DNA of 64,000 bases from Chlorokybus atmophyticus (Eukaryota > Plantae > Mesostigma and Chlorokybus algae), in contig RHPI01002204.1 of assembly GCA_009103225.1 (NCBI GenBank), positions 359,810 to 423,809 on the forward strand, given 5' to 3'. Of the stretch, positions 1 through 29,110 are shown piece after piece. Under the pieces are notes generated by a model. The model ran no database searches and was not told the origin of the DNA. It saw only the letters and a program-made list of their open reading frames with translations. Position 1 is the first letter of the stretch. Every line of letters begins with the position of its first letter. The position numbers and the translations under genes were made by a program.

Positions 1-1397
1 TTTGGTTAGAAGTTGTGTTCTATATCAAGTGGGGGTGTCTTTGCAAATAGCATGGATATCACCGTTAGCTTATGTTCCGAATAGTCATAATTGAATTTGT
101 ATAAGTAGTAAGTCGTGGTATTTACCGGATCAGCAGTGGTGACATTGTGAGCGAGAAAGCTAAGAGCTTGTGAAGCGACTTGAACTGCGAACATGCCGTC
201 CCGGTTACCAAGATCCCCTCACCGTGTGAGAGCCTGCATGCTCGTGTGCACCGTGCTTGTCATTGCTGTGGACTTGATGTGCTTAATTGCGGTGTGCTTG
301 GTGGCATTGGTAAGGGCATAGCATCCACGTGTTGCTTGCTCATTCACCTTACTTAACAGTGTAACACATTTTGCACTCGTGCAAAGAACTGTGTAAACAG
401 CACTACCTTCAGTAGTGGCTTGTTGACTCACAATGTCACCCTCTTTGCTCAAATGAGTATGGTTGCATTCTGCACATCAGAAGTGCAGCTTGCAATTGGA
501 TGCATCCTCGTGCATAATTATCACTGTCATCATCACATAGTGCGCACAAGCACTAGTGCGTTAGAGTGGTCGCAGCATTGGGATAGCTTTATAGAGCACA
601 AACATTCTACCCTTCATACACATCCACTATCGCATCAGCTGTATGAGCAGGCCCACCCCGTTCTCGCCAATAGACGAGGGGGACCTCAGCAGCTGGAGCC
701 CAACCTCCAACCTCACCTACGAGCGAGCAAGTGAAGGAAGCAGTTACCGTAGCAGCAGAGGCTCTCACCACGTCTCCGGCTTTACAATCTTCCACTTCAC
801 TTCTCGCCATCCAGGTAATCCACCTCTTTCGGACAGTGACGACGAAGAGATGGAGCCTTCCTAGCTCAACCACCTCCTTGCGCACCTCCGAAGGTGCAGG
901 GACCACTTGATGAGTTCATCATATAGTTCCAATCCAAGATGCGGCAGTAAGCCCTCTGAAACAAGGACCGGTCAGATGAGGTGTCATTCCATATTATGGC
1001 TCACTACCTTCATCAGGCACACGATGTGTGGAAGTCCATTGCTGAGCTGCACAGAGTTGATGGCTATGGCGAGCCTTGCCAGCACCATAGCACCTGCATC
1101 GACGCACAGCCCAGCAGCTGCTGCCCCAACAGCAGTGGTCCCTCCAACCCCGGTCACAGGGCGGGCGTTAGCTGCAGCTATGCAACAGGCGGAGGACGAA
1201 GAAGTCGAGCTGGTTGCCTTGCTAACACCTGCAGAGGTCGAGGTCAGAAAGGCCTACCGACGGACCATAGTGCAAAACCGCACCGCTGCTAGCATCGAGG
1301 CTCAGCGAGCTGAACAACAAGCTGCAGCCTTGGAGACGGGGACACCAGTACCACCAACACCTGGCTTAAACTCCGGCAAGAGGCAGCCTTCTCACAC

Positions 1398-2318
1398 TTG
1401 GCTTTGTGGTGTTGCGCACACCAGCCATCACCATTGGTGCTATTATGTCGGACTCCTCGCAAGGACTTGTACGCTGCACTGCGGCGTACCTTCCCACCCC
1501 AGACCGCCAGCAAGATGAAAGAGTTGAGACGCTTTCGTCGGAAGCCCAACGAGGACCCTCTTCGGCTGTATTCGTGGCTGGAAGGACTACTTAAGGACAT
1601 TGACTACAAGATCGTCATTGAGGAGGCAGCCGCAGTGGTGTACGTGGTTGAGTTGGACCCAACCTTGAGTGAGCGGACGCGCTTGACACCGAACTATAGT
1701 AGATCCCTCGGCTACACCCTCAAGGAAGCTTTCGAGACTGCACAAGCCATTCACAAGCGTGCGGTGTATGAGAAGGCAGTCTTGGACACCAACCGAAGCG
1801 CCTCACGTCCCATGGCAAGCACGAGTGCTGAGGCCCCTCGACGAGACCGCAGTCGGGATGCTCCAGTCACGCGCAACAAGGACAAATGGTCAGCTCATGC
1901 TGCCCTTATCGCTCCAGTGCTGTGCCATCGGTGTGGTCACTATGAGCACTACTAAAAGGAGTGCACCGAAGATTATGGCAACCTTGTGTGCGACTACTGC
2001 CACAACACCGCACACTTGGAGGCGGTATGCTGGTTTAGATTCCCAGAGCTGCGGCCCTCTATTGGCTACAACAACAGCAACAACGCTGGTGGCTATTGCA
2101 GCAACAACAACAACAACAACAGCGGGGGCTACAACAATGGCAACAACGCTGGTAGTTACAACAACGGCAACAACGCTGCCGGCGCTCGAAAAAAGGAGAC
2201 TGGCTACAGAGGGATCAACCGCCCTCTACAGCGCAAGGGACCCGAGGGACGTCCTCGCGCTGGAGCTGCTGTCAAAGCATCAGTTCACTTGCTGTCGATC
2301 AAATCGCGACCCTCATAG
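1398..2318 (+). pseudogene. Gypsy gag: capsid-like region, two CCHC zinc knuckles, G/Y/N-rich repeat
   Basis: CHRCGHYEHY*KEC (~1922-1964, in-frame stop) and CDYCHNTAHLEAVC (~1988-2029) knuckles. Upstream LRRFRRKPNEDPLRLYSWLEGLL is capsid-like. Confidence 0.8.
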
Positions 2319-2845
2319 CACGAGTGGCCCAGCTGGAAGAAAACAAGGAGCAAAAGTATTAAGCCTGCTACGTTGCCCGATGGGCATTGATGGCACCGAA
2401 GCGCGAAAGAGACACCCCCACGCCTTCGCGTGTTCAACCATGAAGACGTGCGCGCGGTAGCAGCTACTGAGCGCGGTATGCCTGCAGCCCATGCCATAGT
2501 GTCACCACTGGACCGATGTGGACACAGAGCCCACAGCCACGTGGAAAGGGACATTAGTCAGAGAGGCAGCTCATGCTGTCCAATGGACCTACGCCGCAGA
2601 GCAAGCAAAACGCGATGCAGGCCCGCAAACACCGGGTTTGCCGGGCTTTCCTCCACAACCATTAGGGATGCCGCCAAGCATCATGCCACCCTCTCTGCGG
2701 CGGCATCCACCATCACCTCCAGCACAGCCAGCACCAGAACCCCTAGCGCAAAGGCCTCCCCGTGTACCAACCACCACGACAAGCTCAATTTGGCAGAGGG
2801 CGAGGATAAGGAGGGGGTCCTCAAGACCCAGCTGGCAAATGAGCT

Positions 2846-3420
2846 TTGGCTGCGATGCACTCAGCACCTCCAGCTGGGAGACATGAGGCACCGGTGCCGA
2901 CAGCTTGCACTAAGAGGCTACGCATCAACGCCAACGCTGCCATGGTAGCCAACCAAGGCAAGCATGTGACCATCAACGGCCAAGCACCCAAGCGGGTGAA
3001 ACTGGACACCGGAGCACAGGCAGTCATCATTGGGCGCTTCCTCGCGCGGTCCCTTAGCATCACCAGCTTGGATCTAATGCCCTGCCTATACGTATTAGAC
3101 ACAACGGGGAGCCATGACAAGGTGATGGGGGGGGTCACCAAGGAGGCCTTCTGCATTCAGCTAATATGGCTGGACCCAACTCACACCACAGAGGTCGTTC
3201 AGCAATGCGTGGTCACCAACGCTGGCTCTTTCGATTTTCTTCTTAGACAGGACTTCAACTTCCCCGTGGGCATGGGCCTTAACTGCTGGACACAGCGGGC
3301 TTGGTTCCGGCCACATTGGGATAAAGATGATGGAGAGGTGCAGGGCTTCTTGCCTTTCAAGTTGGTGTCACGCACGCGCGCCCAGCTGAAAGTGGCAGCA
3401 GCAGCCATTGGCAGTCATGT
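2846..3420 (+). pseudogene. Gypsy aspartic protease
   Basis: VKLDTGAQAVIIG catalytic motif and downstream FDFLLRQDF (a DxLLG-like motif). Confidence 0.85.
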
Positions 3421-3736
3421 GCGCACACGGGAGGTTGCATCAGCCACATATAACAGCGCCCGCACAAGAGTTATTGCCGTTGCCGCAGCCGCTTGCCGCA
3501 TAGACGACTCCGCTCCCATTCCTTACACTGAGGAACAGGAGGATGCCACTATTGAGGTGGCATTACAAGACCCGGCCGAACGCCGTTGGCGTGCACAGGT
3601 GGACGCGCACCTTTTACTGACCCAGCCACTTATCACTTCGCGCTTCGACAACTACAAGGGACACGGCAAGGTGCAAGACCAGCATATGGTAGCCACCGGA
3701 GTTGTGGAGTTTTTTACCTTTCAGCGGCAGCAGAGC

Positions 3737-4653
3737 ATCACGGTGTTGAAACTATTCGAAGGCATTGGCAGTGGTGTCGCTACGGTCCTCAATACAGGTG
3801 TTAAAGTCACCAGGTATTATTATTATTGCGACTGTAACCCGCACGCTCAAACAGCCCTTAAGCACCATCTGAGTCAACTGCACGAGCGCTACCCACAACA
3901 ATTGCCCTCGTCGGCACTGCAAGGCAGCCTCAAGACATTGCCACTAGACATCCAACTGATCACAAAGGACCACTTGCTGTCCCTCGGCAACTTTAATCTG
4001 TTGGTAGCTGGATGGGAGTGCCAAGGACACTTCAGGGCAGGATAAGGATAAGGCCTCAACGACCCTCGCTCAGGTCTGTTTTGGGAGTTGATGAAAGTCA
4101 TCCACCTCCTCTAATAGCATAAGATCTCCAGGCCACTAGGGAACGTTATCAAAAACGTGCACTTAAAGGGCGACAAGCGTCCCCATGTAGCCTCCACCTA
4201 CCGGCAGGTTGAGGCCATGCTTGTGCATCCACTTAAGGTGAACGCAGTGCGCCATGGTTGCCGTGCACATCGTGTGCGCGTCAAGTGGACAAACTTGGCC
4301 ACCACAGAAGAGCTAATGACAGCAGAGTACACGCGCAGCACACGGCCACGCAACCTCGTGGTCAATGACATCCTTGACCCCGATTGTAAAGCCCAACCTG
4401 TCATGCGTCTTGACCACAGCCACTCCTACCAGTGTAAACAACCTGGCCAAACGCGTACTTCCCACTTTGGTGTCCCACCCAGGGTCATCCCTTCCACAAT
4501 GGAGGCGATGGCATGGTGTTCGACACCACGACGGGCAAGATGAAAGAATCTAGTGCACGTGAGCGCAAGCGCGCCAGGGGCTTCTTTCCCAACAATATCG
4601 CAGGGAAACCGCTGACCGACAATCAGCAATGTGAGCTGCTCGGCCGTGCCATG
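3737..4653 (+). pseudogene. C5 cytosine DNA methyltransferase domain embedded in Gypsy pol
   Basis: Motif I LFEGIG (3752-3769). Motif IV LLVAGWECQ (Cys 4019-4021), followed by GLNDPRSGLFWEL. Motif VI degenerate KNV (4151). Motif VIII AHRVRVKWTNL. Motifs IX/X RERKRARGF and QQCELLGRAM (~4558-4653, after a frameshift). Several in-frame stops. Confidence 0.9.
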
Positions 4654-4981
4654 AACCAAAGCAGCATGGTCTGCTTGAGCTGAGTTTTGTGTTGTAGGAC
4701 CGCCATGTGTTCTTCGAGGATCTCAAACACCTGGCTGAGGAGTGGGCTGATCGCGATGCAGATACCAAGGCAGCTCACACAGCCCTTGAGGTGGCTCACA
4801 GAGAAGAGCAAGCAGCAATGATAGTAGAAGACATCCCCGTGGTTGCCAACGCAACTGTTAAACACTGAGCTAGAGGTGGCCAACTACAGCATACACATGC
4901 ACCGGAACATACACATAAGGCTTGCAAAGGGGTTTCACCAGGGGTTTCATCAAGGCTCCTGTCGAGGTGCTCTGTCTCACT

Positions 4982-5487
4982 TGTTAAACACTGAGCTAGC
5001 GCTGGCCAACTACAGCATACACATGCACTAGAACATACACACAAGGCGTGCACACAAGGCTTGCAAAGGGGTTTCACCCGAACCAACAACTTGTTAATGC
5101 TGTTGGCTTTGATATCAGCCCGACTACACATGTCTACTTTAGCAAGCACCGCGTGAGCTATACTCAGCTGATTGCCAATATGTAAGCTTAGCTCTCTAGC
5201 TTACAGCCAAAGCTTTCCAACAAGCTAAGCCACGTCTTTCAAGGCTAAGTATACGCGGAGTTCTCGCCGTTCTCCTAAGGCGTTGGCTGCGTCAGGCTGC
5301 GCCAGTCTCATGAGCAAGTCCGGAGTCTCCTGCTTGGTCATACTTCGCGTAGTGGACTCGATATCCGCTCAGACTCTTGACTGATCGATATCAGCTCATA
5401 CTAGTAGCAGTATCTCTAAGGCTCATGCCTTAGCCAATTCACAAGCTGACTGGAGTGAGCAGTGTGCAAGACATGCTCATGCTAACA
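4982..5487 (-). repeat. Copia 3' LTR (506 bp)
   Basis: TGTTA...TAACA termini; aligns along its length with 16243-16749. Confidence 0.95.
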
Positions 5488-5665
5488 CTCCCACGCAGGC
5501 AGCTTAGTAGACTCTAAGTCCTACAGTGCAGTCATGGAACTTCTTCGTCACGAAAGGCTTGGTCATGCAGTTAGCCAGGATCTCCTCCGTGTTGCAGTAC
5601 TTGAACGCCACCTCGTTCCTTACCACACGCTCACACACAAAGTGGTGAATCACGTCAATGTGCTT

Positions 5666-7297
5666 TTACCGGACTGAAGCAATCGGTTGCTTTAACAGCT
5701 TGATTGCGCCTTGGTTGTCGCAGTTGATGCTGATGCAGCTTACAGGGTAGCATAAGTCCACCATCAGCTTCTTCAACCACAATGCCTCCTTCATTGCCGA
5801 TGAGGCAGCCATGTACTCCGCCTCTGCTATCGAGGCAGCCACGGTAGGTTGCAGCTTATTGTTCCAACTAACAACTCCACCATTGATCAGGAACACGTAT
5901 CCAATAGTTGACCTCCTCGTGTCGAGGTCCCCAGCGTAGTCAGCGTCACAGTAGCCCTCCAACTCCTTGTCTCCAGCACCAGCTCCCTCTCCAAAGTGAA
6001 TGCCCACGCTTGTGCTCCCCTCACATAACGCAGCAACTCCTTTGCAGCTCTCCAATGCTCCATGGTGGGTGCTAACAGTGTAGCGTGAAAGCACTCCCAC
6101 AGCATGTGCGATGTCTGGCCTAGTGCTCACGGACATGTAAAGCATACTCCCAACCAACTCACAGTAAGGGAACTTGCTGCTTCTGTCGAGGTGCTCTGTC
6201 TCACTCATTGCTCGCTGCAGCTTGGCTCCCACGGACATGGGTATCACCTTGTCTTTGGCGTCTCCCATCGTAAAGTTCTCCACAACCCTTCACGCCATCA
6301 ACTCCTGGCTAATCTTGGCTGTCTTGTTGTCTTTGTCCCTCTCAATCACCATGCTCGGAAACAGCTTTGCCTCTCCTAAGTCCCTCATGTTGCAGGCAGA
6401 CTTGAGAGTTGTCTTCACCTCCTCCAAATCCTTCAGCTTCTTCGCAGCAGCCATAATGTCGTCGACGTAGACCAACAGCAAGATCTTCTTCTCCTTGTGC
6501 GTGAAGAGTCCAGGATCAGCTTCAGAAGGTGTGAAGCCAATCTTCTTCTCCAACTCCTTGGTGAGCCGGATGTGCCATAAACTTTGCGCTTGCTTAAGCC
6601 CATACAATGCCTTTACAAGTCTGCAAGCAGTGCCTGGTCCTCCCTCCTCATAGCCCTTGGGTTGCTGCATGTAGATCTCCTCCTCCAACTCTTCGTAGAG
6701 GAATGCAGTCTTCACATCCAAGTGGTGTAGCTCCCAATCTTCAGCTACCACAAGTGCAAACGTGGTGCGAAAGGTTACAAGCTTACTAGCAGGGGCGAAC
6801 ACCTCATCAAAGTCAATGCCCTCTTGCTGCAAGTACCCCTTCACCACCAATCGTGCCTTGTATCTCTCGATGCGGCCTTGCCCATTGCGCTTGATCTTGG
6901 ACACCCATTTCACCGGTAAGAGCTTCACTTCAAATGGGACCTTCTCCAGCCTCCATGTGCCGTTGGCATGCAAGGATGCTATCTCCTCGTCCATTGCATG
7001 CTGCCCCAGCTCTGTGTCTAGGACTGTCATTGCCTCCTCATATGTGGTAGGCTCCTCCTCCTTGGATGATGCTGCCAAGCTTTTGAAGCGTTCTTCCTTA
7101 AGTCCCGTGCTCCTCAGCATGTACCTGGGCTCCTCCTGGACCTCCACAGCTTCTTCCTCCGAAGCTTGTTGCTGACTGACGGCTGGTGTCTGTAGTTTGG
7201 TCCTCAGGGTGCGATATGTTGATTGGTGACTCCTCCATGTTGGGGTCCTCCTCCTCAACAACCTTTGGGACATCACCTGTGATGCCTTCCTCCACAA
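5666..7297 (-). pseudogene. Copia reverse transcriptase and RNase H (frameshifted)
   Basis: RYKARLVVKGYLQ, HHLDVKTAFL, LYGLKQA, LLVYVDD; RNase H LEGYCDADYAGDLDTRRST and INCDNQGAIKL. Confidence 0.95.
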
Positions 7298-7991
7298 AAA
7301 TTACATCCCTACTCACCACCACGTTGTTGTCTTCCAGTAGCACGCGGTAGGCCTTTGAGTTGAACTCATAGCCAATGAACACGCCCTTCTTGCTCTTGGG
7401 CGCCAGCTTCTTTTGCAGCTGCTTGGGGATAAGATTATACGGTGTAGAGCTGAAAACCTTTAACATAGAGATGTCTGGCCTTTGCTTGGTAAAAAGCTCC
7501 CACGGTTTCTTCGATGGAGATGCTTCCACTGAACGATTGCGCGCATACGCTGCAGTAAGCAATGCATCTCCCCACCTATGGTCTTGCATTTTTGCCACCC
7601 ACCAGTCCACCAGCATTGCTCTGACTTTCTCCAACATGGTTCTGTTAAGCCTCTCAGCTGCTCCGTTCTGCTGCGGGGTGTAGGGTGCCGTGTATCGGTG
7701 CGTAATCCCGTGCTCGGCCAATCAGGTCTTCAGCTCCTTGCTGATGTATTCTCCACCTCTATCTGATCGCACTGTTACCACCTTCTTTTCTAACTGTTTC
7801 TCCATCAGGGTGAGTACCTTCCTCAGCTGTGCCGACACTTCCGACTTCAAATGCAGGGGCACCACCACCGCAACCTTGCTGTAGTCACCCAGGAATGTAC
7901 AAAAATACCTGTACCTTCAGCAGTTCCAACAGGCAGTGGTCCGCATACATCAGAGTGTACCAGCTGCAGAGGCTTGGTTGTCACACTCTGT
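7098..7991 (-). pseudogene. Copia integrase catalytic core
   Basis: LQLVHSDVCGP, YTAPYTPQQNGAAERLNRT, GVFIGYE. Confidence 0.95.
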
Positions 7992-8830
7992 CACACGGAT
8001 TGACGTTCAAGGATCAGGTATGGTCTTTTCACGGACCCCCAGGACCATGCATGGTCCGTATCCCGCGGGCCAGGACTGCCTGGTCCGCGGGGGACGGACC
8101 ATGCATGGTCCGTTCGGGGTCCCGAATCCTAGTGCGCAGTCACGCACCAGATGTGGTGCGTGGCTGGACCAGACATATTACCGGTCCTACTGGCCGCGAA
8201 AGACTGGACCATACACGGTCTGCAGCCGGACCAGGCATATTGCCGGTGCGACTGTCAATGGGTGTACGGACCATGCGTGGTCTGGACCACAACAATGTCG
8301 GACCATATGTGTTGCGGTGAATGAAATCGATGGGACTGGTCCGAACCACATTGATTGGGCGGACCGTTGCTGGTGCACGCTCAGCTTATCGGTCATTTTG
8401 GACAAGCAGCACGCACCATACATGGTCTGCCGCCTTAACAAGCTCTTACTGGTCCAAATGCTAACAAGTTGTGGACCATTCATGGTCCTTAAGCTAACCA
8501 GGCAGCTATTGGTCCAAATTGTCGTATACTTGCGGACCGTATATGGTCCTTGACTTAACCAAGCTCTTCCTGGTCCGAAGGTCTGGGAGAGTACGGACCA
8601 TGCGTGGTTCTAGGTTGGTCCGCAGAACAGTGATTGGGACCATCGCTGATGCACGCTCAGCTCCTTGACAGTCGCACCATGCATGATGCGACTGTCAAGG
8701 GTAAGTCTTCATGGCAGCCTCTAGTAACCGTCGATCCAAGCTTATCGAACGGTGTGCAGTTACTCCATAGAGTCAAGCACCTTGCATGGTGCGACTGTCA
8801 ACTCACGTGCATGGGCTCAGAGTACCGTGG
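7992..8830. repeat. Left subterminal array of GGACCATGCATGGTCC-type palindromes
   Basis: Perfect copies at 8042-8057 and 8096-8111, plus many degenerate GGACC/GGTCC copies. Confidence 0.9.
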
Positions 8831-8958
8831 TTTGTGCAGTAGGGTTTTACCGCTCAGTGAGGTGGCGCCGGCGGAGGGAGCAGGCGGCGGCGCTCTTGTT
8901 GGTGGCGGCGGCGGCGGCCTCTTAGCGGTGTACTTAGTGGCGGAATGCTGGCGTAATA

Positions 8959-9664
8959 TCAATGGCAGGCAAAAAAGCTGTCAAGTTTGCCAGGGACATT
9001 AGTACCAAGCTGGGAATCAACTTGCATGGCGTTGGGCTCACGTTGTTGCCCGTGTACGGAATTGATGTAAGCTGCCACATTGCCAGTGCGGGGGTGGCCA
9101 TCGATAACAACCTGATATTTGTAGGGGTTTTTTGGCGGGAACAGGTTGACGTGATATCGTCTGTGGTGTTGAAAGCCGGTTGTTAGCTGGCAACTGCGGA
9201 AGACATCCCGCTGCTCCTGGTATGTGAACCATTTGCCGTCGTATGGCATCAGGTACTCCTCTGCAAAGTTGCACACAGGTCATCAGTTATAAGCACAGGT
9301 GTATACACAAACACATCGCGTATACACGTGCACGCACCATTCGCTATGTCCTGGCGGGCAAACAGTCCCCGTCCAACACCAATGATTGTGGAGTTCTTGA
9401 TCTCCCAGTCGTGCAGGTGATACTTGAACTCCTCTTTGACCGGAATGCTTGTGGATGCTTTCACATCCTTCAAATAGTTCAGCCGCCACAGCTGGTGCTT
9501 GTCTCCAGCTCCACGATGGATGAGCTTCAGGTTGGGAATCTCATTGTCAGTCTGTTTGAAGCAGTGGTCAGTTGCAATGCTTTGAGAGCCACACAGATGA
9601 CAGTCTTGCTTGACAGTCCTCAACACTCATGACAGATGACAGTCTTGCTTGACAGTTCTCTAAG

Positions 9665-9698
<34 letters not shown>

Positions 9699-9940
9699 AA
9701 TTCACGACATATGCTTACCCTCAAGATGTCGTCCGACAGGTTGGGTGGCTGTGTGGTGCCCGTGGAACTGTAGCGTTTCACTTCAAACCTCTGCATCTCA
9801 TAAAGAGCTGCACGGAACTCTTCTTTGGGATCCACCGCAGGTCCTTTGCCGCGTTGCTGTGCGGAGGATTTACGCAATGATGGACTTGTTGAGACATCTG
9901 CAGTCTCCTCCGAGTCTGCCTCCTCGCTTCCTTCCGGCTT

Positions 9941-9991
<51 letters not shown>

Positions 9992-10870
9992 CTCCGTTTG
10001 CTCCTCTTCCACCTCCAACTGCGTATTGCGAGGCCAAAAGATATATTGCCTTGACAGCCGTCCCGCTTCGTCCCACAGTTCTTGCGTTTGTAACCTTGGG
10101 TAAGTAAGAATGCCGCGATAATTGGTGTACAAATGCACTCACCCATCCTGGGATGGCCATGACTTTTGCCATTTTGTAGTACTTCAGCACCGCGACATGT
10201 GGGTGAGGGTGGGCCGGGAATTGATCCTTCTGCAATACGCTGCTGGTGAGTTTCTCATGCAATGGGACATGTTACGCAAATGTAAGTTGATAACTAGGCT
10301 GATAGAACAAATTAACATCATGCATAGCAAGTGACATGCACAGGATCCCAGCAGCGACTGTCAATGCGATGCGCGATGCCTTAGCACAGAGCATTGACAG
10401 CCTATGCATGTCGTAAACAATCTTAATTGTTGAACGTTCTTACCTTGATGACTTGCTGGTATTGAAGCCCCATAGCCTTGCACACATCCTGGTCCTCCCT
10501 ACCGCCCCGGTTGTTGATCATGCGCACGCATCGGCACACCTGCGTGTTGAAGTGCTGTCCGATTTTGGTGGGCTTGGTCTCTCCCCCAGTTGGTTGACCC
10601 CTTGCATCACGGTGACCAGCTTGCACATTGCATGCAGAATGGGCAGCCCCAAATAAACGGCGCCCCTGTGGACGCCCGCCTTCGTTCCATGATGTCCAAC
10701 TGCCTGGCAATCCTTCTCCTAGCGACTGTCTTGTACAACTCCTCACAGCTCCGCACACCTCTCCTCGCTTCACCCTGCGCCCTGAGCTACACCCACACCC
10801 ACAACCACAACCACCACAACCACCACAACCACAACAATAGCAAACTATACTAGGGAGACCATGCAATGGC
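8959..10870 (-). CDS. Spliced cargo gene ending in a SET-like domain (C-terminal SET part not found; 5' end uncertain)
   Basis: WEIKNSTIIGVGRGLFARQDIAN, then GT-AG intron 9337-9261, then EEYLMPYDGK...VIDGHPRTGNVAAYINS...PNA. Upstream putative exons are bounded by GT/AG and include a polyQ tract (~9942-9985). Confidence 0.65.
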
Positions 10871-11435
10871 TATATACGCCGCCAACCTCCCGTCCAATCT
10901 ATGATGTCCCATCAATGACAGCCGCCAAGTTGGTGAGTCCCTAGCCCTACCACTGCTAACCCTTAACAGCCGCCTTATAAATTCTACGCAATTTGTTGCT
11001 AGCAGTGCGTTTGGCGTCGATTCGACGTCCAATAAATGACAACCCCCAGATATAAGGTGAGTATAGGGATTGACAGCCGCGTCGCTAGCTTTGTGAGTTT
11101 CATTGACTGTGTCGCACTGCATTTGGCACTGCACAATTGCGGCTTGTGCGGCGGTCACAATGCTTGTGCGGCTCGTGCGACTGTCCATATGGAACACAGT
11201 AGGACTTGACAGTCCTAGTCAGTGAGTAGTGAGTTCGCTTGCGAGTTTGCATGCGCCATGGTTGTGTGTTGCTTGAAAAATTGCATTAGTCGTTTGTGGT
11301 TTGCTGCTTGAGCTGTCAGCGCTTACCTAAAAGGTGTTTGTTTTGCTTTGAAGCTTGCATGCCTTGTTGATTGTGCGCTGAGTCACTGTCTGTGCACTAA
11401 GTTCGGTTGCTTGTTCAGGCTGTTCAGCTGACATT

Positions 11436-13860
11436 ATGGCTATTGGGGAGGGCAGCCTACTGCCTGCTGCAGCTGATTGCTTCAGGGCCAAGGGCAACCA
11501 TTTGCTGGGCCAGGCCAGCAAATGGTTCCTAATGAATGAGGAGTACAAGCATATGCGCACAACGCTGATGGTCAACCTAGAGAAGCTGAAGAAGGAGATG
11601 TTAAGCAAGTGGCCACTACCTCAAGGTATGAAAGGCAAGGACTTCAAGATGAATGCCGAGCACCGGCAGGAGCTCGACGAAGTATGCGAGGCGGTCTTGC
11701 AGCAGTCACTTCCACTGGTCTTTGACGTAAACCACACGCTCACGTGGACAAAAGGTGAGCTGCTTTCTTGGTGACATCTGCTGTTTGACAGAAACTTGCA
11801 TTCAGCTGTGTTGAAGTGAGCTTTCAAGCATGTCGTTCAGCTTTCAGTTCACTCACTGTTTGCTTAGCTGTCTTGCCATTGACAGTCCTTGCCCTGGTTG
11901 ATGTGTTTGTGCTTGTTGATTCATTGACCAGTTGCGATATGCTGTCTTTGAGGCTGTCTTCTGCTAGATGCCATCTTCCAACAGCTGAAAATGCTGTATT
12001 GGAGCTGTCTTGCCGTTGACAGTCCTTGCCGCTGGTACTTTGCTGTACTCTTATCTGCTTGTGTTGCAGCACAAATCAAGCAGCATGTACTGGTGCTGCA
12101 GTACTCCGTTGGCGCGAAGCGCGGCAGTGGTACCGGGAAGAGCGTCTAAGAACGCAATGAGGCCAAGAAGCAAAGGCGTGCAAGCGACAGGGAAGCTGCA
12201 CAAGGTAGCCGCGCTGCTCAAGCTGGAGCTGGCTGGGGCATGACATTTTGTCTGGGGAGGGACATGAGGGCCAACCAGCAGGTGGTCATGCTTGCGCCTT
12301 TAACCGCTCTTCCTCTCACAAACGCTCAGTACCGGGCCACTTGGCTAAAAGAGAGGTAAGCAACTATGGTGATGTCGGTCGACTGTCGGTCCTGTTGTAC
12401 TGTTTTGCTGAGCTGCTGCCTCCATGCATACTGGCTTAACACATGGTGCCTGCTACTCTGAATGCTACTCTGCGTGTCATGACAGGGGTGCGGACGGATA
12501 TGCTGAAGATCAGGTGTTCGACATTTGCAACAACGCAGTAGTTGTTGGCGACGCCACCATCGATTCCGTATGCGAGCCAGACCAACCAATGCGCACGTAT
12601 CCAGTCTCTGTTAACCACTGGATGGCAATGAGAAGTGAGGATGGCAACCTTGCCGATCAACTACCTGTGAAAGAAAGGCATTTTCTCTATGGCACGCCGA
12701 CAAGCAGCTGCCATGGTGGGCGTACTCTGGAGGTACATTGCTTGCTGTGGATGGGCACATGCTCCTGCTGTGACTGTATGGTGTAGTGCATGAGCATTTC
12801 TTGTGTTAAACACAACAACATGCAGGGCAGGGAGATGGAGTGGCCCATGATGGTCTTGGCCAGCGGAGGCATCTGCCCCTGTGAGGCATGCGCTAACGAT
12901 GAGCGCATTGCGGTGCCGGGTTGCATCAAGGACCGGCTACCTACGCCCGCAGCCAGGCACAGCACACACACAGAGGTTAATAAGGGCTGTTGTTAGGCTG
13001 TTGTCACATCATGAACAGTCGCCAATGCAGCCATTGATCACGCCTTGACAGTCGCAAATTGCATTACATGTTACAGTTCTTGACAGTCATTAATGCACTG
13101 CAGACTGTCAATGATATTGACAGTCGCCAATGGACTGCACTGACCACTCTGGGTCCTAGGCAGGTTGCTGGGGCGATCTCTGACTGTGAAGATGAAGAAG
13201 CCGCCGCCATGGACTTGCGAACTGCAGCGGGGATCGTGTGCAACACCAAGCCCAACGCCCCCACCAGAGAGGAGGCAATGGACATGTATGAGTACTACCA
13301 CCACATCGAGCACACGCTGTTCCACAATGGTCACCAGCTGGCATTCAAGGACCCCAACCAAATGGAGCGTGTGCCAGACGAGCTGATGTTGAGAGCCATT
13401 GTCAGCTTTGCTGCCAGGAAAAAGTGGTTGATGTCCAACAAAGATGTTGAAGGAGGGTGCAAGTGGGGATCCAATCGCAAACTACCAGGTATGCATACTT
13501 CACTGCAGCAAGTTAACGACAGTCCTTTGCTGGTTTTCAAGAGTGATGATTTGGTACAATGCAGGGCTTTTGAGCGAGGCAAAGAAGAGAAAGCCATTCC
13601 GACCCAAGAGGCAGTGGACGCGACAGCCCTCGTCATCCTCCTAGGTGGGTGGTTTCCTGTGCTATGGTCAAGTTACATTACTGTTTGTGTAAGCACGTGA
13701 CAGTACAGTTGTTGTGCAGAGCTCAACAAGCACTCGCTAAGTGTTTGCAAGAGATGCTGTTGAGCAAGGCTGTCGCGGGTGTCTTCACATTGGGGTTGAA
13801 TCAACCAGGGAGAGCACAAGTCTGGCTTCCTGGCGAAGGTGCTGGCAACACAAGAGACTG
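11436..13860 (+). CDS. Unknown multi-exon cargo gene of the CACTA-like element
   Basis: Exon-like ORFs 11436-11753, ~12110-12355, 12424-12786, 12790-12996 and 13160-13490 with plausible GT donors; Cys-rich segments; no family recognised. Confidence 0.4.
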
Positions 13861-14019
13861 ATGTTGTTAGCTGCTCCTGTTACCTCCTGTAACCGCAGCT
13901 TGAAGTGCATGTAGGAGACTGTAGCTACAGTCTCACTGGCTTGACACTGATGGGCTGTCGTTTGACAGTCCATTACAGCATTTCTGTGAATTGCATGCGT
14001 GTCGGATTGTATGCACCGG

Positions 14020-14723
14020 GCACGGTGCAGGCACCAGTGCTAAGACCATGCATGGATTCAATGGCTGTGACATCATGACAGACCATGCATGGTGCGACTG
14101 TCAATCAGACCATGTGGTGCGTTGTCTGTTAGGACCAGACATGGTGCCGCTTGTGGACCATGCATGGCTTCAATGGCTGTGACATTATGATAGACCATGC
14201 ATGGTGCGACTGTCAATCAGACCATGTATGGTGCGTTGTTTGTTAGGACCATGCATGGTACCGCTTGTGGACCACATATGCACAACAAAGTCCGTATCCA
14301 TGGACCGTGCATGGTGCGACTCGATCAGACTGGCACCCATAAATGGTCCACTGAGCCAGGAGGGCAGCGCACCATGCATGGTCTGAAATATGTCAGTTTA
14401 AACAAAGACTTCCGGTCCGTATCCATGGACCGTGCATGATGCGACTGTCGATCACCAGACATGTGGAAGTAACAAACCATGCCTGGTCTTCTGCGCCAGG
14501 GGGCATTGCACCATACATGGTCCTTGCAAACTCATACAAATAGGTCACCATACATGGTGCGACCCCAAACAAACATGGGACCGTTCACGTGAGGTTTGGA
14601 CCATGCATGGTCCGACTGTCATTGACAGTCCGACCATATATGATCCACCAATTTCACTTAGCAGGGGAAAATCCCGGTTCAGAGGTACGGACCATTCATG
14701 GTCCTTTGACGTCAATCGGTGTG
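14020..14723. repeat. Right subterminal repeat array, including a ~110-bp tandem duplication
   Basis: GACCATGCATGG units; duplicated unit ~14044-14270; perfect palindrome 14598-14613. Confidence 0.9.
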
Positions 14724-16130
14724 TGTGATGCTGAGAATGGCAATCTTCGTTGCTTCGCCAGCACACAGGGTTCACACAACACCTCTTGCATGGTGTCCAT
14801 CTCCTCCAGCTTAATGTTGATGCCATCCACCATGTCTTCCTTTATCAGCCTGGTGAGGTTATCGTAGCCGAGATGTTCAAGTCGTCGATGCCACAGCGCT
14901 GCAGAGTCTTTTGTCGATGCAGTATACGCTTGCACTCAAGCAAGCTTCACATGATACTCTCCTCCTCCATAATCTTTGGCGATCATGTACACAACCCCAT
15001 CAATCAGTACACGCCCATGGTCTCCCTCAAATACAGTCATAGCCCCAGCTCTTGCAGCAGCACGCAGACTAGACTAACAACCGCTCGGGGAACATGTAAC
15101 ACATTGCGCAAGCACACTTGCCTCCCAGCTCCGTCAACACTGCAATTAAGGTGGATATCCCCCATGCCAATGGCTGCTTCCTCACTGCTTCCAAATGTGA
15201 CCATGACAGGCTTGTGCATAAGCTTGTAGCTCTGGAACTGCTCCTTGTCAAAGGTGAGATGCTTGTTGCACCCGGAGTCCAGCACCCAAGTAGTAGCAAA
15301 TCTTGACGATGCAGCTGTAAAGGCCATGGGTTTCTCACCCTTGTTGTCGTCCGCCACCCTTCGCCTTCTCTTGCTCCGCTAACCACATCCGGCACTCTAT
15401 TGAAGTGGCCCTTCTTCCCACAATCATGACACTTGTGGGTCATCTTGTAGTCCTTCCACTTCCTGTTGCCACCGTTGTACGAGCCTCCTCCTCCACCCAG
15501 ACTTCCTTTCTTTAAGCTTGAAGCAGCAAACGCCACCGAATCTGCTTCATCCCTTTTCCTGCCTGTCTTCTCTTCTTGTTGAAGCAGCACGGGCAGCACC
15601 ACGTTGAGCTTGAGTTCTCCCCTCTGCGTCTCAAGCACGGTCACCACCATGTAGCACTCCTCTAGAAGACCGGAGAGGATAGCCCAAACCAGCTCCACCT
15701 CTTTCACCTCGTGGCCTATCGTATCGAGGTCTTTCCACAGCTTCCTTGCTCGTCCCACGGACTTAAAAATAGGCTCCGCTGACTCCTTCTTTAACGCGTT
15801 CAAATGCCTCCTCAGCTGCAGCTTTCTTGCATTGTTGCTTGCTTCGAACGTGTCTGCTAGCTTCTGCCACTCTTCCTTGGCATGCTCACACTCATCAAGC
15901 ATCACAAGATGGTGATCCTTCACGTTCAAGAACAGCAATTCAAGTGCCTTTTCACTCTTCTCCAACCGCACACTCTGTATACTCTACAAGTGCGTCACCG
16001 TTAGAATCGGCATACTTCCGCAAACCCTTGTGCTTCAGGAGCGCCTTCATCTTTATGCTCCATGTGCTGTAGTTCTCTAGATGCAGAGGTGCCACCAACA
16101 ACGTAGCGCTTGAGCCTTCATCTTCTGCCA
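14724..16130 (-). pseudogene. Copia gag, protease and GAG-pre-integrase zinc finger
   Basis: Gag WQKLADTF...LRRHLNALK, knuckle CHDCGKKGH, protease WVLDSGCNKHLT, zinc finger LWHRRLEHL...CEPCVLAKQ. Confidence 0.92.
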
Positions 16131-16242
16131 TCTTGTCACGCCTTTTTTGGAGGTCTTCCGCAAGTAGCAGCTCCGCTCAGCTTCTCCACTAGTTATAGTG
16201 ATGTCTCCTCTCTTGAACCACTAGCAGTATGGGCCCATAACC

Positions 16243-16749
16243 TGTTGAACACTTAGCTAGCATTGGCCAACTATAGCATACACTTGCACCAGAATATATA
16301 CACAAGGCATGCACACAAGGCTTGCAAAGGGGTTTCACAAAAACCAACAACTTGTTAACTCCGCTGGCCTTTATACCAGCCGGACTACACATGTCTACTT
16401 TAGCGAGCACCGCGTGAGCTATACTCAGCAGATTGCCAATATATAAGCTTAGCTCTCTAGCTTACAGCCAAAGCTTTTCAACAAACTAAGCCACGCCTCC
16501 CAAAGCTTGGTATACGGGGAATTCTCGCCGTTCTCCCAAGGCATTTGCTGCGGCAGGCTGCGCCAGCCTCATGAGCAAGTCTAGAGTCTCCTGCTTGGTC
16601 ATACTCCGCGTAGTGGACTCGATATCTGCTACAGACTTATAATTGATCGATATCAGCTCATACTAGTAACAGTATCTCTAAGGCTCATGCCTTAGCCAAT
16701 TCACAAGCTAACTGGACTGAGCACTGTGCAAGACATGCTCATGCTAAGA
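16243..16749 (-). repeat. Copia 5' LTR (507 bp)
   Basis: Adjacent to the PBS; homologous to 4982-5487; the outer terminal dinucleotide is mutated. Confidence 0.95.
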
Positions 16750-18130
16750 GCAAAGTCATGGGACCATGCCATTGGCCCTCTTGCTACGGAGGACACACGA
16801 GAGAAGTTAAAGGCTCTCCTCAGCAAGTAGACAAGCCAATTTAGCTTCAACGTTAAGGAGCTGGGTGCATGTTCAGTGTACAAGAGATGGACATCCAGCT
16901 GGTGGACACCGAGCCGGTGTTCCGACGGCAATACAGGCTCTCCAAGTTGGAAGAGGATCTAGTGGAACAGAGATGTCAGACTCTGCTGAACGCAGGCTTC
17001 ACTGAGGAGTCCACATCAAACTTTGTAGCCACGACAGTCATGCCATTAAAGGAGGATTCAGTAGGCAATTGCACAGAATGGCGCATGTGCGGCGACTACC
17101 GCCCCCTCAACAACAAGACAAAACAAGACAAGTACCCAATGCCCACATCAGAGGGCATCTTTAAAGATGTAGGAGACTGCACGGTCTTTAGCATCGTTGA
17201 CATGCGCCAAAGGTACAATTACATTGCCATCAAGGACGAGGACAAGCACAAGACCTCCTTATGGGGCAATCGACAGTTGTACCAGTAGAAGGTGATGCCG
17301 TTCGGGCTGAAGAATGCCCCTGCCAAGTTCCAATGCGTCATGGACAAAGCCTTGAAGGGGCTGGACTTCTCGCGATGCTGAATTGACAACATCCTCATCT
17401 TCAGCCGCAGCAACGAATAGCACCTACAGAACATCCAGGAGGTGCTGAAGAGGCTCAAGGGAGTGGGGATGACTGTGCACCCCGACAAGTGCATCTTTTT
17501 GCCTCACAAGGTACCCTACTTGGGGCACATGATTGTGCCCCACCGTGTGTACGTACAGCATGCAAAGGTGGAGGCCCTGGCAGCTGTCCCTGCTCCTATG
17601 GACCGCACGCGCCTGCGCGCCTTCTTGGGCCTTACCAACTACTATCGCTGGTTCGTAAAGGACTTCGCGAAGATAGCGCGGCCCCTCAACGAGCTACTGA
17701 AGAAGGAAGTGGAGTTTGCGTGGAAGGAGCCGAAACATCAAGCCAGTAAGCACAGGCTCACCACAGCTCCCATCCTTCAATGCCCTGACTACACCAAGCC
17801 CTTCATCCTTCACACCGACTGGAGCAAGCTGGGGGTGGGAGCCGTGCTGGTGCAGCATGATGAGAACAAGAAAGAGCGCGTGGTGTTATACGCTTGCCGG
17901 AACAACAACAGTGCCGAGGCCAACTATATCAGCTACGAGGGAGAGTGCCTCGCTGCAGTGTGCGCTATCTCCTTCTTCCAGCCCTTGCTGTCCGGTTGGC
18001 AGTTTTAGTTGATCACGGACCATCAGCCACTTAAGTGGTTTATGACCAACCAGCACTCGACAGGAAAACTTGCCCGTTAGGCCTTACTACTGCAATAGTA
18101 TAATCTTGAGATCGACCACCGCGCCGGCCT
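16750..18130 (+). pseudogene. Gypsy RT and RNase H
   Basis: WRMCGDYRPLN, MPFGLKNAPAKFQ, catalytic YxDD decayed to *IDN (17379); RNase H FILHTDWSKLGVGAVL, YEGECLA, ITDHQPL. Confidence 0.92.
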
Positions 18131-18424: not shown

Positions 18425-20100
18425 ATGGCTGAACAATCCCTCTCTTTCCTCCAAAGTGGTCAGGTCCCTGCAAGCATGAGTGCGCGTGAGAAGAACCGCG
18501 TCAACCAACGCACTCAACACTACCGCTGGGCAGATGACAAGCTGTATTGGCGTCTTCACGGTGAAAATAAGGAGATGCCGACCCCAGCCACACGTGAGGG
18601 CATCATCACTACCCTACACACTGAGCTCGGACACTTTAAGCGTACAGTCTGCCTTGTAAGGGCACAATATTGATGGCATGGGTTATACAAGCAAGTGAAG
18701 GAGTTTTTCTGTTGAGAGTATTCCTACATACGATCAGCATCGACCCTCCACACAGGAGTAGAAGTTCGTAAGGCGAGCACTAGGTCCGGACTTAGCAAGA
18801 CGGCACCGTCGGACCAGACTCCGGACTCCAGACTGGAGCCTTACTAACCGCTTTGTATCTCCGCGTATACTTACTCATATTAGGCGTGTAAGCGCTTGTT
18901 AGAAAGCTCTAGTTTTAAGAAAGATAACACAGCTTAGAGCGCGTTATAAGGCTGAGTATAGCTTACGCAGTGCTTGCAAATGTAGACGTGTATGTAACTG
19001 GCTGGTATAAGAAGCAGCGGACGACTTGTAATAGATGAATGTGATGTGACTTGTGTATGCTCTAGTGGCGGTAGCTCTGTCTCTGTGTGTCCATGCTTGC
19101 CTCAGCTACATCTGCATGTTAGTCCTTCAACAAGTTGGTAAGGCACCGCCGACATTGTGCGCGCAAGCCTCAACACGCGCAGTGCCACGCTGCGTCCTCT
19201 CCCCATCTCCGGCCTCTTCTATCGCTGGGGGCTCGACATCTTGGGAGACTTGTCACCCTCGGCACGTGGCAACCGCTACATCCTAGTGATGATCGAGCAT
19301 TTCTCCAAGTGGGTGGAGATGGTGCCACTACCCGATAAGAGCAGTAGGGGGGTGGCTCAAGCCTTCCTCTCTCATGTCTCCAGCCTCTTCGGCAGCTATA
19401 CAGAGGTCATCAGCGACCAAGGCACCGAGTTCAGAGGGGAGTTCAACACTCTCTTACACAGGTGCTACATTGATCATTGCCGTACCTCGCGTGACCACCC
19501 TCAAGCCGACGGTCTCGTCAAGCGCACGGTGCCAACCATCCAAAAGCACTCCGCAAGTATGTGCTGGCGTACGAGAAGAGAACACCTGGGATGACCACCT
19601 CCCATGGGTGGCTCTTGGATACCGACTATCGAAGCGGGCAGCTCTGCGCGAGTACCGCTCGTACTACTTTCTGCTCGGGGGACCGCCGCTGCTTCCTTTC
19701 CGTGCACAGCAGGAGGTGAACCGCATGGTGAACAACCTCGACGATCCCGACTGGATGCACCATGACATTATCATGCGCGCAGCACTATTGAAGCGCACAG
19801 TCCCTATGGCCTTCAACAACTTGCGCATCGTGCACCGCGACACGCTACGCTACGAGTGCGTGCGCAGTGGCTTCTACAAGGAGCGCCACTGCCGGTTTCA
19901 AGCAGGGGACGTCGCCTACCGCATGGAGGCCACCAAGGACACGCTTGACACCTCCAATGCTCGCACGGTCTACAAGGTGCTCAAGGTGTACCTTACAGGG
20001 GTACAAGACCTCCTCGGCCAGAATGGCGAGAGGTTGAAGGACAACATGCTGAACCGCGCGCCGTGTCACCTCCCTTACATAGCAGGGTCATGGCGTATCA
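18425..20100 (+). pseudogene. Gypsy integrase (HHCC zinc finger split by the solo LTR; DDE core)
   Basis: HTELGH...W; RWGLDILG, VISDQGTEFRGEF, HPQADGLVKR. Confidence 0.9.
18710..19132 (+). mobile_element. Solo LTR of a related Copia family
   Basis: TGTTGA...TCAACA termini. Its core GCTGAGTATAGCTTACGCAGTGCTTGC...GGCTGGTATAA matches the reverse complement of the Copia LTR. It interrupts the Gypsy KELVRH codons. Imperfect TSD AGTTT/AGTTG with 3 extra bases. Confidence 0.85.
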
Positions 20101-20128
20101 ACACCCTCACCCCGCCCGCAGCACGCGT

Positions 20129-20274
20129 TGCGAGCGCTACCGCAGCGTCGACGACGACTCGCTCATAATGTTTGGCGATGGCTGCAACAAGGGCCTGAAT
20201 TGCTACTCACAGACAGTCTCGGAGCCCCCACTGGATGCGGTACCAGTATGGAGGAGTATCGGTGTGATGACTGC
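20129..20274 (+). pseudogene. Degenerate PHD finger at the Gypsy integrase C-terminus
   Basis: CER[Y]RSVDDDSLIMF[G]DGCNKGL[N]CY...PPLDAVP, then YRCDDC after a frameshift. Spacing fits C4HC3; the bracketed residues are single-base changes from C, C and H. Confidence 0.7.
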
Positions 20275-20652
20275 CGCGTCAACGGCCCTTCCTTGCATTG
20301 AACACTGAACTCTAGAGCTGGAACCTCCTAAGAGGCTCAGGGGGGTTGGCTTGTTACCTGTGTGTCCTACAGCACAGCATGTATACTAAGGAGGAGATTC
20401 TCTCCACATGTTCGCACCACTCCACATCAGCGGCTGTGCACCAAGAAGCATATACTGTCACAGAAAATTGGGTTATCTTTTTGCTTTTGCTAACACCACC
20501 AGATCTCTCTCTCGCTCTCGCTGTGTACTTGCACATGGCACTGCAAGTGGCCGTGCGTGCTTGCGTGTATTGCACTAATGTGGTGATTCCAATTCCTGTT
20601 GCATATGCATGCACGTGTAAGTGGCCGCGCCTACTTGCACATGCATGGTAGG

Positions 20653-21182
20653 TGTAACGGGAAGATTCATTGCATTACCACAAAGCGACCATAAAAGCAC
20701 CAAGTCTTTTGTGGTCGAGTGGGCTGTGACATTGGTTATCGGAGCTTGAGACCCGTGTTCAATTCCTGCCTTGCACACGAATTCCGCGGTCGTTGTTTCT
20801 CGATCCAATAAAATCGTAGATGGTCACTTCATAAGTGCCATCATCAATAGGTCGCGACTTGCCTAATGGCAGTCGCGTCGGACTGACCAGTTCAGTCGGC
20901 GCGGCAGGACGCGACCTGCCTGTCGCGATGCGACCTGTGGGGCCGGCAGCGGTGCGCTATGCGCGCGTTGACCGGTTTGGGCCTAAATTGGCCGGTCCTT
21001 GGGTGGTGGGGCCGGTGACCAACCCTAACTGAGACCCCTGGGAAGATTCCCCAGCTGATGAGCGCCAGCTGCCGAAGACGTCAGCGTTCTTAAGTTGGGG
21101 GGAATGTAACGGGAAGGTACATTAAATTACCACAATCGACCATAAAAGCACCAAGTCTTTTGTGGTCGAGTGGGCTGTGACA
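20653..21182 (+). mobile_element. TRIM (miniature non-autonomous LTR element), 530 bp
   Basis: LTRs 20653-20731 and 21105-21182 (TGTAAC...GTGACA). PBS-like [29 protein letters not shown]. Perfect 5-bp TSD GTAGG. Confidence 0.95.
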
Positions 21183-21304
21183 GTAGGTGTATTATACTAC
21201 TGTGTTGGTTCCAATTCAATCAAGGCCTGTGCTGTTACATTAACGTTTATTCACATGTTAATGTCATGCAGTACTTGTTAAACGTGCACTAATTTTACAC
21301 CCCC

Positions 21305-29077: not shown

Positions 29078-29110
<33 letters not shown>

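What the first reader, a model, noticed from the sequence alone, without database searches (positions are those of the whole stretch)
3737..4653. Cytosine-5 DNA methyltransferase fused inside a Ty3/Gypsy pol, between protease and RT
Seen: motifs I (FEGIG), IV (GWECQ, catalytic Cys kept, PC changed to EC), VI (KNV, from ENV), VIII (AHRVRVKWTNL) and IX/X, starting in the same ORF as the protease (2846-4045). Established: retrotransposon-borne DNMTs are rare; I recall them being reported in Symbiodinium and in Klebsormidium Gypsy elements (de Mendoza et al. 2018). Inference: the element could methylate its own cDNA or target sites. This copy is dead, but the family may be a new lineage or host for the system.
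Basis: partly seen in the sequence, partly recalled or inferred. Interest (0 to 1): 0.82.

Follow-up and report, generated by a model that had tools for sequence, protein, structure and literature searches.

The report
Algal retrotransposon carrying DNMT3-type methyltransferase
This is a dead copy of a jumping gene, in what is likely the early-branching green alga Chlorokybus, whose replication protein contains a DNMT3-type DNA cytosine methyltransferase that intact copies likely use to mark their own new DNA; the design is already known from the alga Klebsormidium, but its relatives reach across both halves of the green algae.

Summary
Confirmed, and a member of a known kind. Window 3728-4680 is a DNMT3-type C5 methyltransferase (Pfam PF00145 E 1.6e-4; best PDB matches DNMT3C/A/B by sequence, DNMT3A/B by fold), in frame with the Ty3/Gypsy protease. 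A 12-kb Copia insertion splits it from RT-RH-IN-PHD. This copy is dead: four stops, a frameshift and a lost catalytic Glu. The EC for PC at motif IV is a family trait (91 of 151 relatives), not decay. The host is likely Chlorokybus. A Klebsormidium nitens protein has the same protease-DNMT order, so this belongs to KnitGypsy-Dnmt3 (de Mendoza 2018). Not found in my paper searches: (1) relatives in Mesostigma and Closterium, and a second layout (RT-RH-DNMT-IN) in chlorophytes, on one RT branch (100/100); (2) an integrase PHD finger in 68 of 72 long relatives; (3) readthrough-type stops between DNMT and RT in two relatives. Likely mechanism: the enzyme is packaged in the particle and methylates new cDNA. 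Activity has never been shown for this family. The scan found this family before, on other pieces of this genome and in mosses and liverworts.

The parts
1314..2318 (+). gag remnant with CCHC-like zinc knuckles (~1914-2050), broken by stops
   Evidence: ORFs; tblastn of relatives' gag regions E down to 1e-11 in this frame; no Pfam hit on its own
2969..3328 (+). aspartic protease (DTG at 3005-3013), same ORF as the DNMT N-half
   Evidence: Pfam Asp_protease_2 E 1.1e-4; own HMM E 3e-21
3728..4680 (+). DNMT3-type C5 cytosine methyltransferase domain; four stops (4043, 4049, 4112, 4115), a frameshift near 4444, catalytic Glu of motif VI lost
4698..4855 (+). first part of the DNMT-RT linker; continues at 16750
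   Evidence: a contig of run X1 joins 4856 to 16759 (table 5c)
4856..16749 (-). inserted Ty1/Copia element (LTRs 4979-5487 and 16240-16749, K2P 0.114; flanks GCAAC/GCAAA), itself holding a further insert at about 8000-14710; not part of the Gypsy element
   Evidence: Pfam RVT_2, rve_3, SH3_retrovirus, Retrotran_gag_2; repeats
16893..18104 (+). Ty3/Gypsy reverse transcriptase and RNase H, six stops in 16857-18110
   Evidence: Pfam RVT_1, RT_RNaseH(_2); 55% identical to L133
18425..20096 (+). integrase (zinc part 18425-18700, core 19157-19543, C-terminal part), split by a solo LTR at about 18710-19132
   Evidence: Pfam rve E 7e-10; a contig of X1 skips 18685-19151
20126..20245 (+). decayed PHD finger at the integrase C-terminus
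   Evidence: own PHD HMM from 12 relatives, E 1.6e-7 for this one stretch
20331..20352 (+). candidate polypurine tract followed by TG, a possible start of the 3' terminal repeat (inference only)
   Evidence: sequence; no matching 5' repeat found in the window

Best explanation
This is a decayed Ty3/Gypsy retrotransposon (gag-protease-DNMT-RT-RNaseH-integrase-PHD) of the Gypsy-DNMT3 family, whose intact members likely package the DNMT3-type enzyme into their particle and likely methylate cytosines in their own newly reverse-transcribed DNA before the PHD-bearing integrase inserts it. Shown: the domain order, the DNMT3 affinity, the dead state of this copy, family-wide conservation of the catalytic residues, and one RT lineage with two DNMT positions. 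Inferred: packaging, release by the protease, catalytic activity, cDNA as substrate, and histone-tail reading by the PHD. In some sublineages a readthrough-type stop would put the DNMT on the abundant Gag side, so that it is made in excess over RT.
For: Among 151 relatives the catalytic Cys is kept in 149 of 151, the motif VI Glu in 143 of 144 with a residue there, and the two motif VIII Arg in 132 of 138 and 131 of 136, against a median top-residue share of 0.5 over 233 columns. That pattern fits selection on catalysis. The AlphaFold model (pLDDT 86.6) matches DNMT3A/B first (Foldseek E 5.5e-12); the family profile scores DNMT3A 1.5e-24, a DRM-type plant DNMT (4onj, identity recalled) 2e-11 and HhaI 7e-10. 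The domain lies inside the polyprotein in both layouts, which fits action inside the particle rather than dependence on one neighbour. RT-RH tree: 21 DNMT-bearing rows stand apart from 18 DNMT-less rows plus one DNMT-bearing exception at 100/100. The intact relative L133 has FAGIG, GWPCQ, ENV and a full PHD, with TAG-CAA-TCA between DNMT and RT, the type I readthrough motif of PMC3159437, and a 3' stem-loop at z -4.4. SymbioDIRS-Dnmt3 domains methylate CG de novo in yeast.
Against: The KnitGypsy-Dnmt3 domain showed no activity in yeast (inconclusive there, because human DNMT3B also failed). Most relatives have E instead of P before the catalytic Cys (91 versus 49 of 151), with unknown effect on activity. 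There is no CpG signature. In the window the Gypsy parts have CpG o/e 0.65-0.91, less depleted than the DNMT-less Copia at 0.49-0.59. RT-RH regions of L133, L134 and L054 give 0.74, 0.57 and 1.06, against a median of 1.01 for 21 other loci with GC>=0.5; n=3 and mixed. The readthrough stop is not universal: the window's linker shows no such context, and P0011, P0167 and others run DNMT into RT in one ORF. L054 has a second, decay-type stop inside RT and no significant 3' structure (z -0.4). Other L133 windows fold almost as well (lowest -3.9 among 109).
Confidence: 0.55

Rival explanations
1. The enzyme is active but works on chromatin: it enters the nucleus with integrase (or, made in excess with Gag, acts in trans) and methylates the insertion site or existing copies, with the PHD finger choosing the chromatin, as in a reader-writer pair.
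For: A PHD is present in 68 of 72 relatives with DNMT, integrase and more than 260 aa after the integrase core. In the larger group (type B) the DNMT lies directly before the integrase. DNMT3-family enzymes are de novo chromatin methylases (established knowledge).
Against: In the window's type (A) the DNMT is about 1000 aa from the integrase and, in L133 and L054, on the other side of a stop. PHD-bearing Gypsy elements with no DNMT listed exist (Gypsy-7a of Chlamydomonas, figure legend in PMC9940879). K. nitens has an ordinary plant-like methylome.
Confidence: 0.25
2. The domain is kept as a non-methylating or weakly methylating DNA/RNA-binding or base-flipping module, for example to shield cDNA from host enzymes.
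For: Negative yeast assay; P/E before the catalytic Cys switches at least 13 times on the tree; no consistent CpG depletion.
Against: The SAM-binding glycine and the catalytic Cys, Glu and Arg residues are 98-100% conserved at 30-40% overall identity, which inactive DNMT3L-like proteins do not keep (recalled).
Confidence: 0.15
3. A one-off captured host or phage gene fragment, or an assembly chimera, rather than a pol component.
For: This copy is heavily broken and nested; phage methylases are related (best listed E 7e-18; ESM Atlas phage clusters at 0.95).
Against: 50 fetched proteins have the same protease-DNMT(-RT) layout, including uninterrupted gag-PR-DNMT-RT-RH-IN ORFs (cluster near-duplicates included). 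74 and 28 contigs from two runs lie on 3500-4900, mostly under 90% alike. The listed phage and IMG/VR matches are much weaker (E>=7e-18, >=2e-10) than the retroelement ones (1e-39).
Confidence: 0.02

Closest known systems
KnitGypsy-Dnmt3 of Klebsormidium nitens (de Mendoza et al. 2018, PMC5890265; read: main text parts 1-5 of 7, passages of the peer-review file; Fig. 4 and the main supplement not visible)
   Same: Intronless Dnmt3-related domain with unpermuted motifs inside a Ty3/Gypsy pol of a streptophyte alga. K. nitens GAQ93235.1 (P0131) has the order CCHC-protease-DNMT and lies on the same side of the DNMT tree as the window.
   Different: Host is likely Chlorokybus. EC here versus PC in P0131. 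This copy is dead. The PHD finger, the chlorophyte layout and the readthrough-type stop are not mentioned in the text I could read. The DIRS-like split repeats could not be checked here.
SymbioDIRS-Dnmt3 and SymbioLINE-Dnmt of Symbiodinium (same paper)
   Same: Retrotransposon-borne DNMT; the DIRS type has two positions of Dnmt3 in pol and methylates CG de novo in yeast.
   Different: Tyrosine-recombinase or LINE elements in dinoflagellates, with no DDE integrase and no protease-DNMT junction.
EpiLTRs of Cymbomonas and Euglena (bioRxiv 10.64898/2026.05.21.726589; read: part 1 of 5 and passages)
   Same: Ty3/Gypsy-like LTR elements with a cytosine DNMT and a chromatin reader.
   Different: Their DNMT is sister to DNMT4, comes with a Dam domain and a chromodomain, and in Cymbomonas sits at the 3' end of pol; the authors state it is distinct from the streptophyte Gypsy-DNMT3.
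Mammalian DNMT3A/3B/3C catalytic domain
   Same: Best solved relatives by sequence and fold.
   Different: No PWWP or ADD domain; about 22% identity; an extra helix after motif II; GW[EP]CQ in place of GSPC.

Membership tests
Gypsy-DNMT3 (KnitGypsy-Dnmt3) | Ty3/Gypsy pol with order PR-RT-RH-IN | tested here: met
   contigs bridging both insertions
Gypsy-DNMT3 (KnitGypsy-Dnmt3) | Dnmt3-related, unpermuted, intronless DNMT domain within pol | tested here: met
   motifs I-X in order; no tree with canonical DNMT3 was built because those sequences could not be fetched
Gypsy-DNMT3 (KnitGypsy-Dnmt3) | Same position and lineage as the K. nitens elements | tested here: met
   P0131 = GAQ93235.1 has PR then DNMT and is among the 56 rows set off with the window at SH-aLRT 95. 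That this protein belongs to the paper's named family is inferred, since Fig. 4c was not visible.
Gypsy-DNMT3 (KnitGypsy-Dnmt3) | Key catalytic residues conserved | tested here: met
   Met for the family. This copy has lost the motif VI Glu and three other residues that are 99% conserved.
Gypsy-DNMT3 (KnitGypsy-Dnmt3) | DIRS-like arrangement of terminal repeats | tested here: inconclusive
   No repeat between window 1-1400 and 20200-22100; an N gap lies at about 21305-21389; L133 is a collapsed circular contig; no shared non-coding sequence or palindrome with L133
Gypsy-DNMT3 (KnitGypsy-Dnmt3) | Purifying selection (Ka/Ks < 0.2) on the DNMT among copies | not testable with these tools
   No genome is held and read-laying gives no copy sequences
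Active C5 DNA methyltransferase | SAM-dependent methylation of cytosine in DNA | not testable with these tools
   Needs an assay; the published assay of the K. nitens domain was negative and inconclusive
EpiLTR (Dam + DNMT + chromodomain) | Dam domain, chromodomain and DNMT4-sister DNMT | tested here: not met
   Pfam shows no Dam or chromodomain in the long relatives scanned; the reader domain is a PHD; the DNMT is DNMT3-like

The most novel reading that the evidence does not exclude
Gypsy-DNMT3 is not a Klebsormidium oddity but one ancient green-plant retrotransposon lineage that pairs a DNMT3 writer with an integrase PHD reader. It spans Mesostigma, Chlorokybus, Klebsormidium and Closterium (protease-DNMT-RT) and chlorophytes such as Scenedesmus and Haematococcus (RNaseH-DNMT-integrase), and it moved the domain once within pol. 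In some branches it sets DNMT dosage by stop-codon readthrough, so that an active EC/PC-type enzyme is made with Gag and pre-methylates the cDNA.
Probability: 0.4. Interest if true: 0.68.

Novelty: new member of a known kind. Interest (0 to 1): 0.42.

Why it matters
Cytosine methylation is the host's tool against transposons, so why an element keeps its own de novo methylase has been an open question since 2018, and the one Gypsy enzyme tested gave no activity. The copy in this window is dead and adds only a host. The family survey makes the question easier to test. It gives intact, diverse EC- and PC-type domains (L133, L134, P0011, P0167), named cultured hosts in both green lineages (Closterium, Mesostigma, Scenedesmus, Haematococcus), a natural comparison of two domain positions on one RT lineage, and a readthrough junction that predicts DNMT in excess over RT. 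If active, these elements could also be a reservoir of DNMT3 in algae.

Tried and rejected
No whole genome is held, so copies could not be counted or Ka/Ks computed. Run search: no RNA holder listed. Pfam on the unread-through pieces gave no DNMT hit. The word-indexed search with the decayed domain found only 1 longer protein; the full HMMER scan was needed. IMG/VR gave only distant phage-type DNMTs (53 loci) and no RT relatives. A first RT alignment had no stretch conserved enough to scan with. Terminal repeats: none found between the two ends in the window, and no shared non-coding sequence or palindrome with L133, so the split-repeat and mid-LTR integration idea of earlier notes was neither confirmed nor refuted. 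A TAG-CAG-CTA at window 2458 is not in the gag frame and is within chance (background 51 of 21,872 stop triplets), so it was rejected as a readthrough site. The 3' structure after the L054 stop is not significant. The CpG-depletion test was uninformative to negative. Rfam found only low-scoring matches to AT repeats and palindromes in 1-23000. A sequence look-up in earlier findings gave nothing. A paper search for 'readthrough + CARYYA + retrotransposon' gave 0 papers.

Full report
Observation. The N-terminal half of the domain lies in one stop-to-stop ORF, 2843-4045, with an aspartic protease (Pfam E 1.1e-4). Read with X at its four stops (positions), 3728-4444 hits PF00145 at E 1.6e-4, 21.6 bits against a cut-off of 22. 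In the PDB its best matches are DNMT3C, 3A and 3B (E 3e-7 to 1e-4), ahead of HhaI (2e-3). Motifs IX-X follow in another frame at 4444-4680 and match the same relatives. A profile of 28 family members scores DNMT3A at 1.5e-24, a plant DNMT (4onj; DRM-type by recall) at 2e-11, HhaI at 7e-10, DRM2 at 4e-7 and DNMT2 at 1e-4. The AlphaFold model (pLDDT 86.6, pTM 0.80) returns only DNMT3A/B/C entries among the Foldseek rows shown (best E 5.5e-12).

Anatomy. The element reads gag (1314-2318), protease (2969-3328), DNMT (3728-4680), linker, RT (16893-17534), RNase H (17562-18104), integrase (18425-20096) and a decayed PHD finger (20126-20245). The 12-kb gap is a minus-strand Copia element (RVT_2, rve_3 and SH3; gag) with LTRs at 4979-5487 and 16240-16749 (K2P 0.114) and near-identical 5-bp flanks. 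A solo LTR splits the integrase. Contigs of run X1 join 4856 to 16759 and 18685 to 19151, so other copies lack both insertions. The ends of the Gypsy element could not be defined: there is no repeat between 1-1400 and 20200-22100, and an N gap follows.

Host and copies. A 317-aa stretch of the Hsp70-family gene at 55390-56340 is 100% identical to a protein labelled jgi/Chlat1; the other 21 hits are 29-41% identical, Mesostigma 34%. That Chlat1 is Chlorokybus atmophyticus is recalled; the species is a streptophyte alga of its own class. On 3500-4900, 74 contigs of run X1 and 28 of X2 could be laid, of which 59 and 25 are under 90% alike. Many diverged DNMT-bearing copies therefore exist. These runs may include the source of the assembly and are not independent support.

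Family. The HMMER scan of 1.84 billion representatives gave 1089 hits at E<=1e-3. Of the best 150, 22 have the window's layout (type A: protease-DNMT, RT after), 66 have RT-RH-DNMT-IN (type B), and 62 are too short to tell (a first pass with single-sequence queries gave 17, 67 and 67 of 151). I could look up names for 30 of these clusters and 41 further hits. Named type A proteins come from Closterium (four strains), Mesostigma viride and Klebsormidium nitens GAQ93235.1. Named type B proteins come from Scenedesmus sp. PABB004 and Haematococcus lacustris. Two whole elements came from contigs filed under bacterial MAGs, which I take as mis-binned eukaryotic DNA: L133 (type A) and L134 (type B). 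A PHD finger is present in 68 of 72 proteins that have DNMT, integrase and more than 260 aa after the integrase core (near-duplicates included).

Motifs. Over 151 relatives the catalytic Cys is kept in 149; the residue before it is E in 91 and P in 49; the motif VI Glu is kept in 143 of 144; the motif VIII Arg residues in 132 of 138 and 131 of 136. So EC is a family trait, switching with PC at least 13 times on the tree, while KNV is decay. This copy departs from four columns that are 99-100% conserved and has four stops and a frameshift in the DNMT and six stops in RT-RH. It is dead.

Trees. RT-RH, 116 rows, quick method, 12 near-duplicate rows dropped: 47 of 48 DNMT-bearing rows plus L054 form one side (SH-aLRT 99) against 42 loci with enough flank and no DNMT and 25 undetermined loci. 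A careful tree on 40 hand-picked rows gives the same split at 100/100, with type B (11 of 12) a group at 100/98 and type A weakly grouped (65/88). The window's nearest row is L133 (55% identity, 94/89). The exception is P0149, with the order RT-RH-DNMT-PHD-IN, which falls among the DNMT-less rows and may be a separate capture. The DNMT tree (169 rows, quick) separates most type B rows (81 of 85) from a 56-row side holding the window, K. nitens and Mesostigma at SH-aLRT 95. The simplest reading is one lineage with one relocation of the domain. Limits: DNMT-bearing rows were chosen by their DNMT; the outgroup scan covered 3 of 64 parts of the collection and kept 80 of 583 matches; the root is assumed; no canonical DNMT3 was in the tree.

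Readthrough lead. In L133, gag-PR-DNMT (1162 aa) and RT-RH-IN-PHD (1047 aa) are in one frame, separated by a single stop in the context TAG-CAA-TCA. This is the type I motif UAG-CAR-YYA described in PMC3159437 (passages read). Background is 51 of 21,872 stop triplets, and it is the only one of 299 in L133. The 3' RNA folds at z -4.4, 0 of 200 shuffles; the region around the stop is among the strongest of 109 windows, though others reach -3.9. L054, 73% identical to K. nitens over the last 60 DNMT residues, has an in-frame TGA-CGG (type II motif) at the residue where GAQ93235.1 ends. Against: L054 has a second stop in RT and no 3' structure, GAQ93235.1 is labelled partial, the authors state that DNMT and RT share an ORF (peer-review file passages), several relatives run DNMT into RT without a stop, and the window's linker has no such context. 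Readthrough is therefore at most a feature of some branches.

Mechanism. I commit to action in cis, at 0.55. The DNMT is made in the Gag/Pol polyprotein, packaged, released by the protease, and methylates the new cDNA before integration, while the PHD guides the integrase. Shown: position, affinity, conservation. Inferred: every functional step. CpG content gives no support: in the window the Gypsy parts (0.65-0.91) are less depleted than the DNMT-less Copia (0.49-0.59), and three related loci give 0.57, 0.74 and 1.06. Rivals are action on chromatin with the integrase (0.25) and a non-catalytic role (0.15).

Comparison with print. de Mendoza et al. 2018 (PMC5890265; parts 1-5 of 7 and passages of the review file read; the figures and the main supplement, too large to read, may show the domain order, a PHD or further hosts) describe KnitGypsy-Dnmt3 in K. 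nitens, with Ka/Ks < 0.2, DIRS-like repeats and no activity in yeast. A 2026 preprint still places Gypsy-DNMT3 in streptophytes only (passages). PMC12344493 mentions retro-DNMT3 in streptophytes and dinoflagellates (passages). The term Gypsy-DNMT3 occurs in just the first two of these papers. Searches (listings seen) showed no paper on Chlorokybus, Mesostigma, Closterium or chlorophyte members; subscription papers and repeat libraries were not searched. Earlier notes of this scan report the same family on other pieces of this genome and in mosses and liverworts.

Verdict. A real feature and a new member of a known kind, in a new host; this copy is dead. The wider range, the second layout, the PHD and the readthrough lead add moderate interest: 0.42.

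Noticed in passing
window 20653-21182: TRIM-like miniature LTR element: 79-bp LTRs (92% alike, TG...CA), 5-bp duplication GTAGG on both sides, PBS-like sequence after the 5' LTR.
   Followed up: partly
window about 8000-14710 (inside the Copia): Nested insert with palindromic subterminal repeats at both ends, likely a DNA transposon. Minus-strand ORFs at 8959-9626 look like halves of a SET domain: ESM Atlas 29 of 30 hits SET at up to 0.92, weak recognition score; no Pfam or PDB hit. If real, a transposon-borne histone methyltransferase.
   Followed up: partly
window 4856-16749: Ty1/Copia element on the minus strand, LTRs at K2P 0.114, with a partial tandem LTR duplication at 4856-4978; a related solo LTR at about 18710-19132 in the opposite orientation.
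   Followed up: partly
P0149: Protein with the order RT-RH-DNMT-PHD-IN whose RT groups outside the Gypsy-DNMT3 branch: possibly a separate capture of the same DNMT by another Gypsy lineage.
   Followed up: partly
L133 (whole) and L134 (whole): Intact eukaryotic-type Gypsy-DNMT3 elements on contigs filed under bacterial MAGs, likely mis-binned; L133 is a circularly collapsed contig with a 127-nt end overlap; L134 has a weak Tudor hit after the PHD.
   Followed up: partly
L073, L095, L123, L129: Gypsy-type RT-RH with the integrase upstream of RT (Gmr1-like order, name recalled) among the outgroup loci.
   Followed up: no
window 138-151 and 427-440: 14-bp perfect inverted repeat in the high-depth region upstream of gag; role unknown.
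   Followed up: no
window 26000-57000: Host genes: chalcone-isomerase-like (26131-27036), SpoU/TARBP1-like methyltransferase (weak hit, 28602-30326), HIRA-like WD40 (37150-37782), Hsp70/HYOU1-like (54044-56673).
   Followed up: partly
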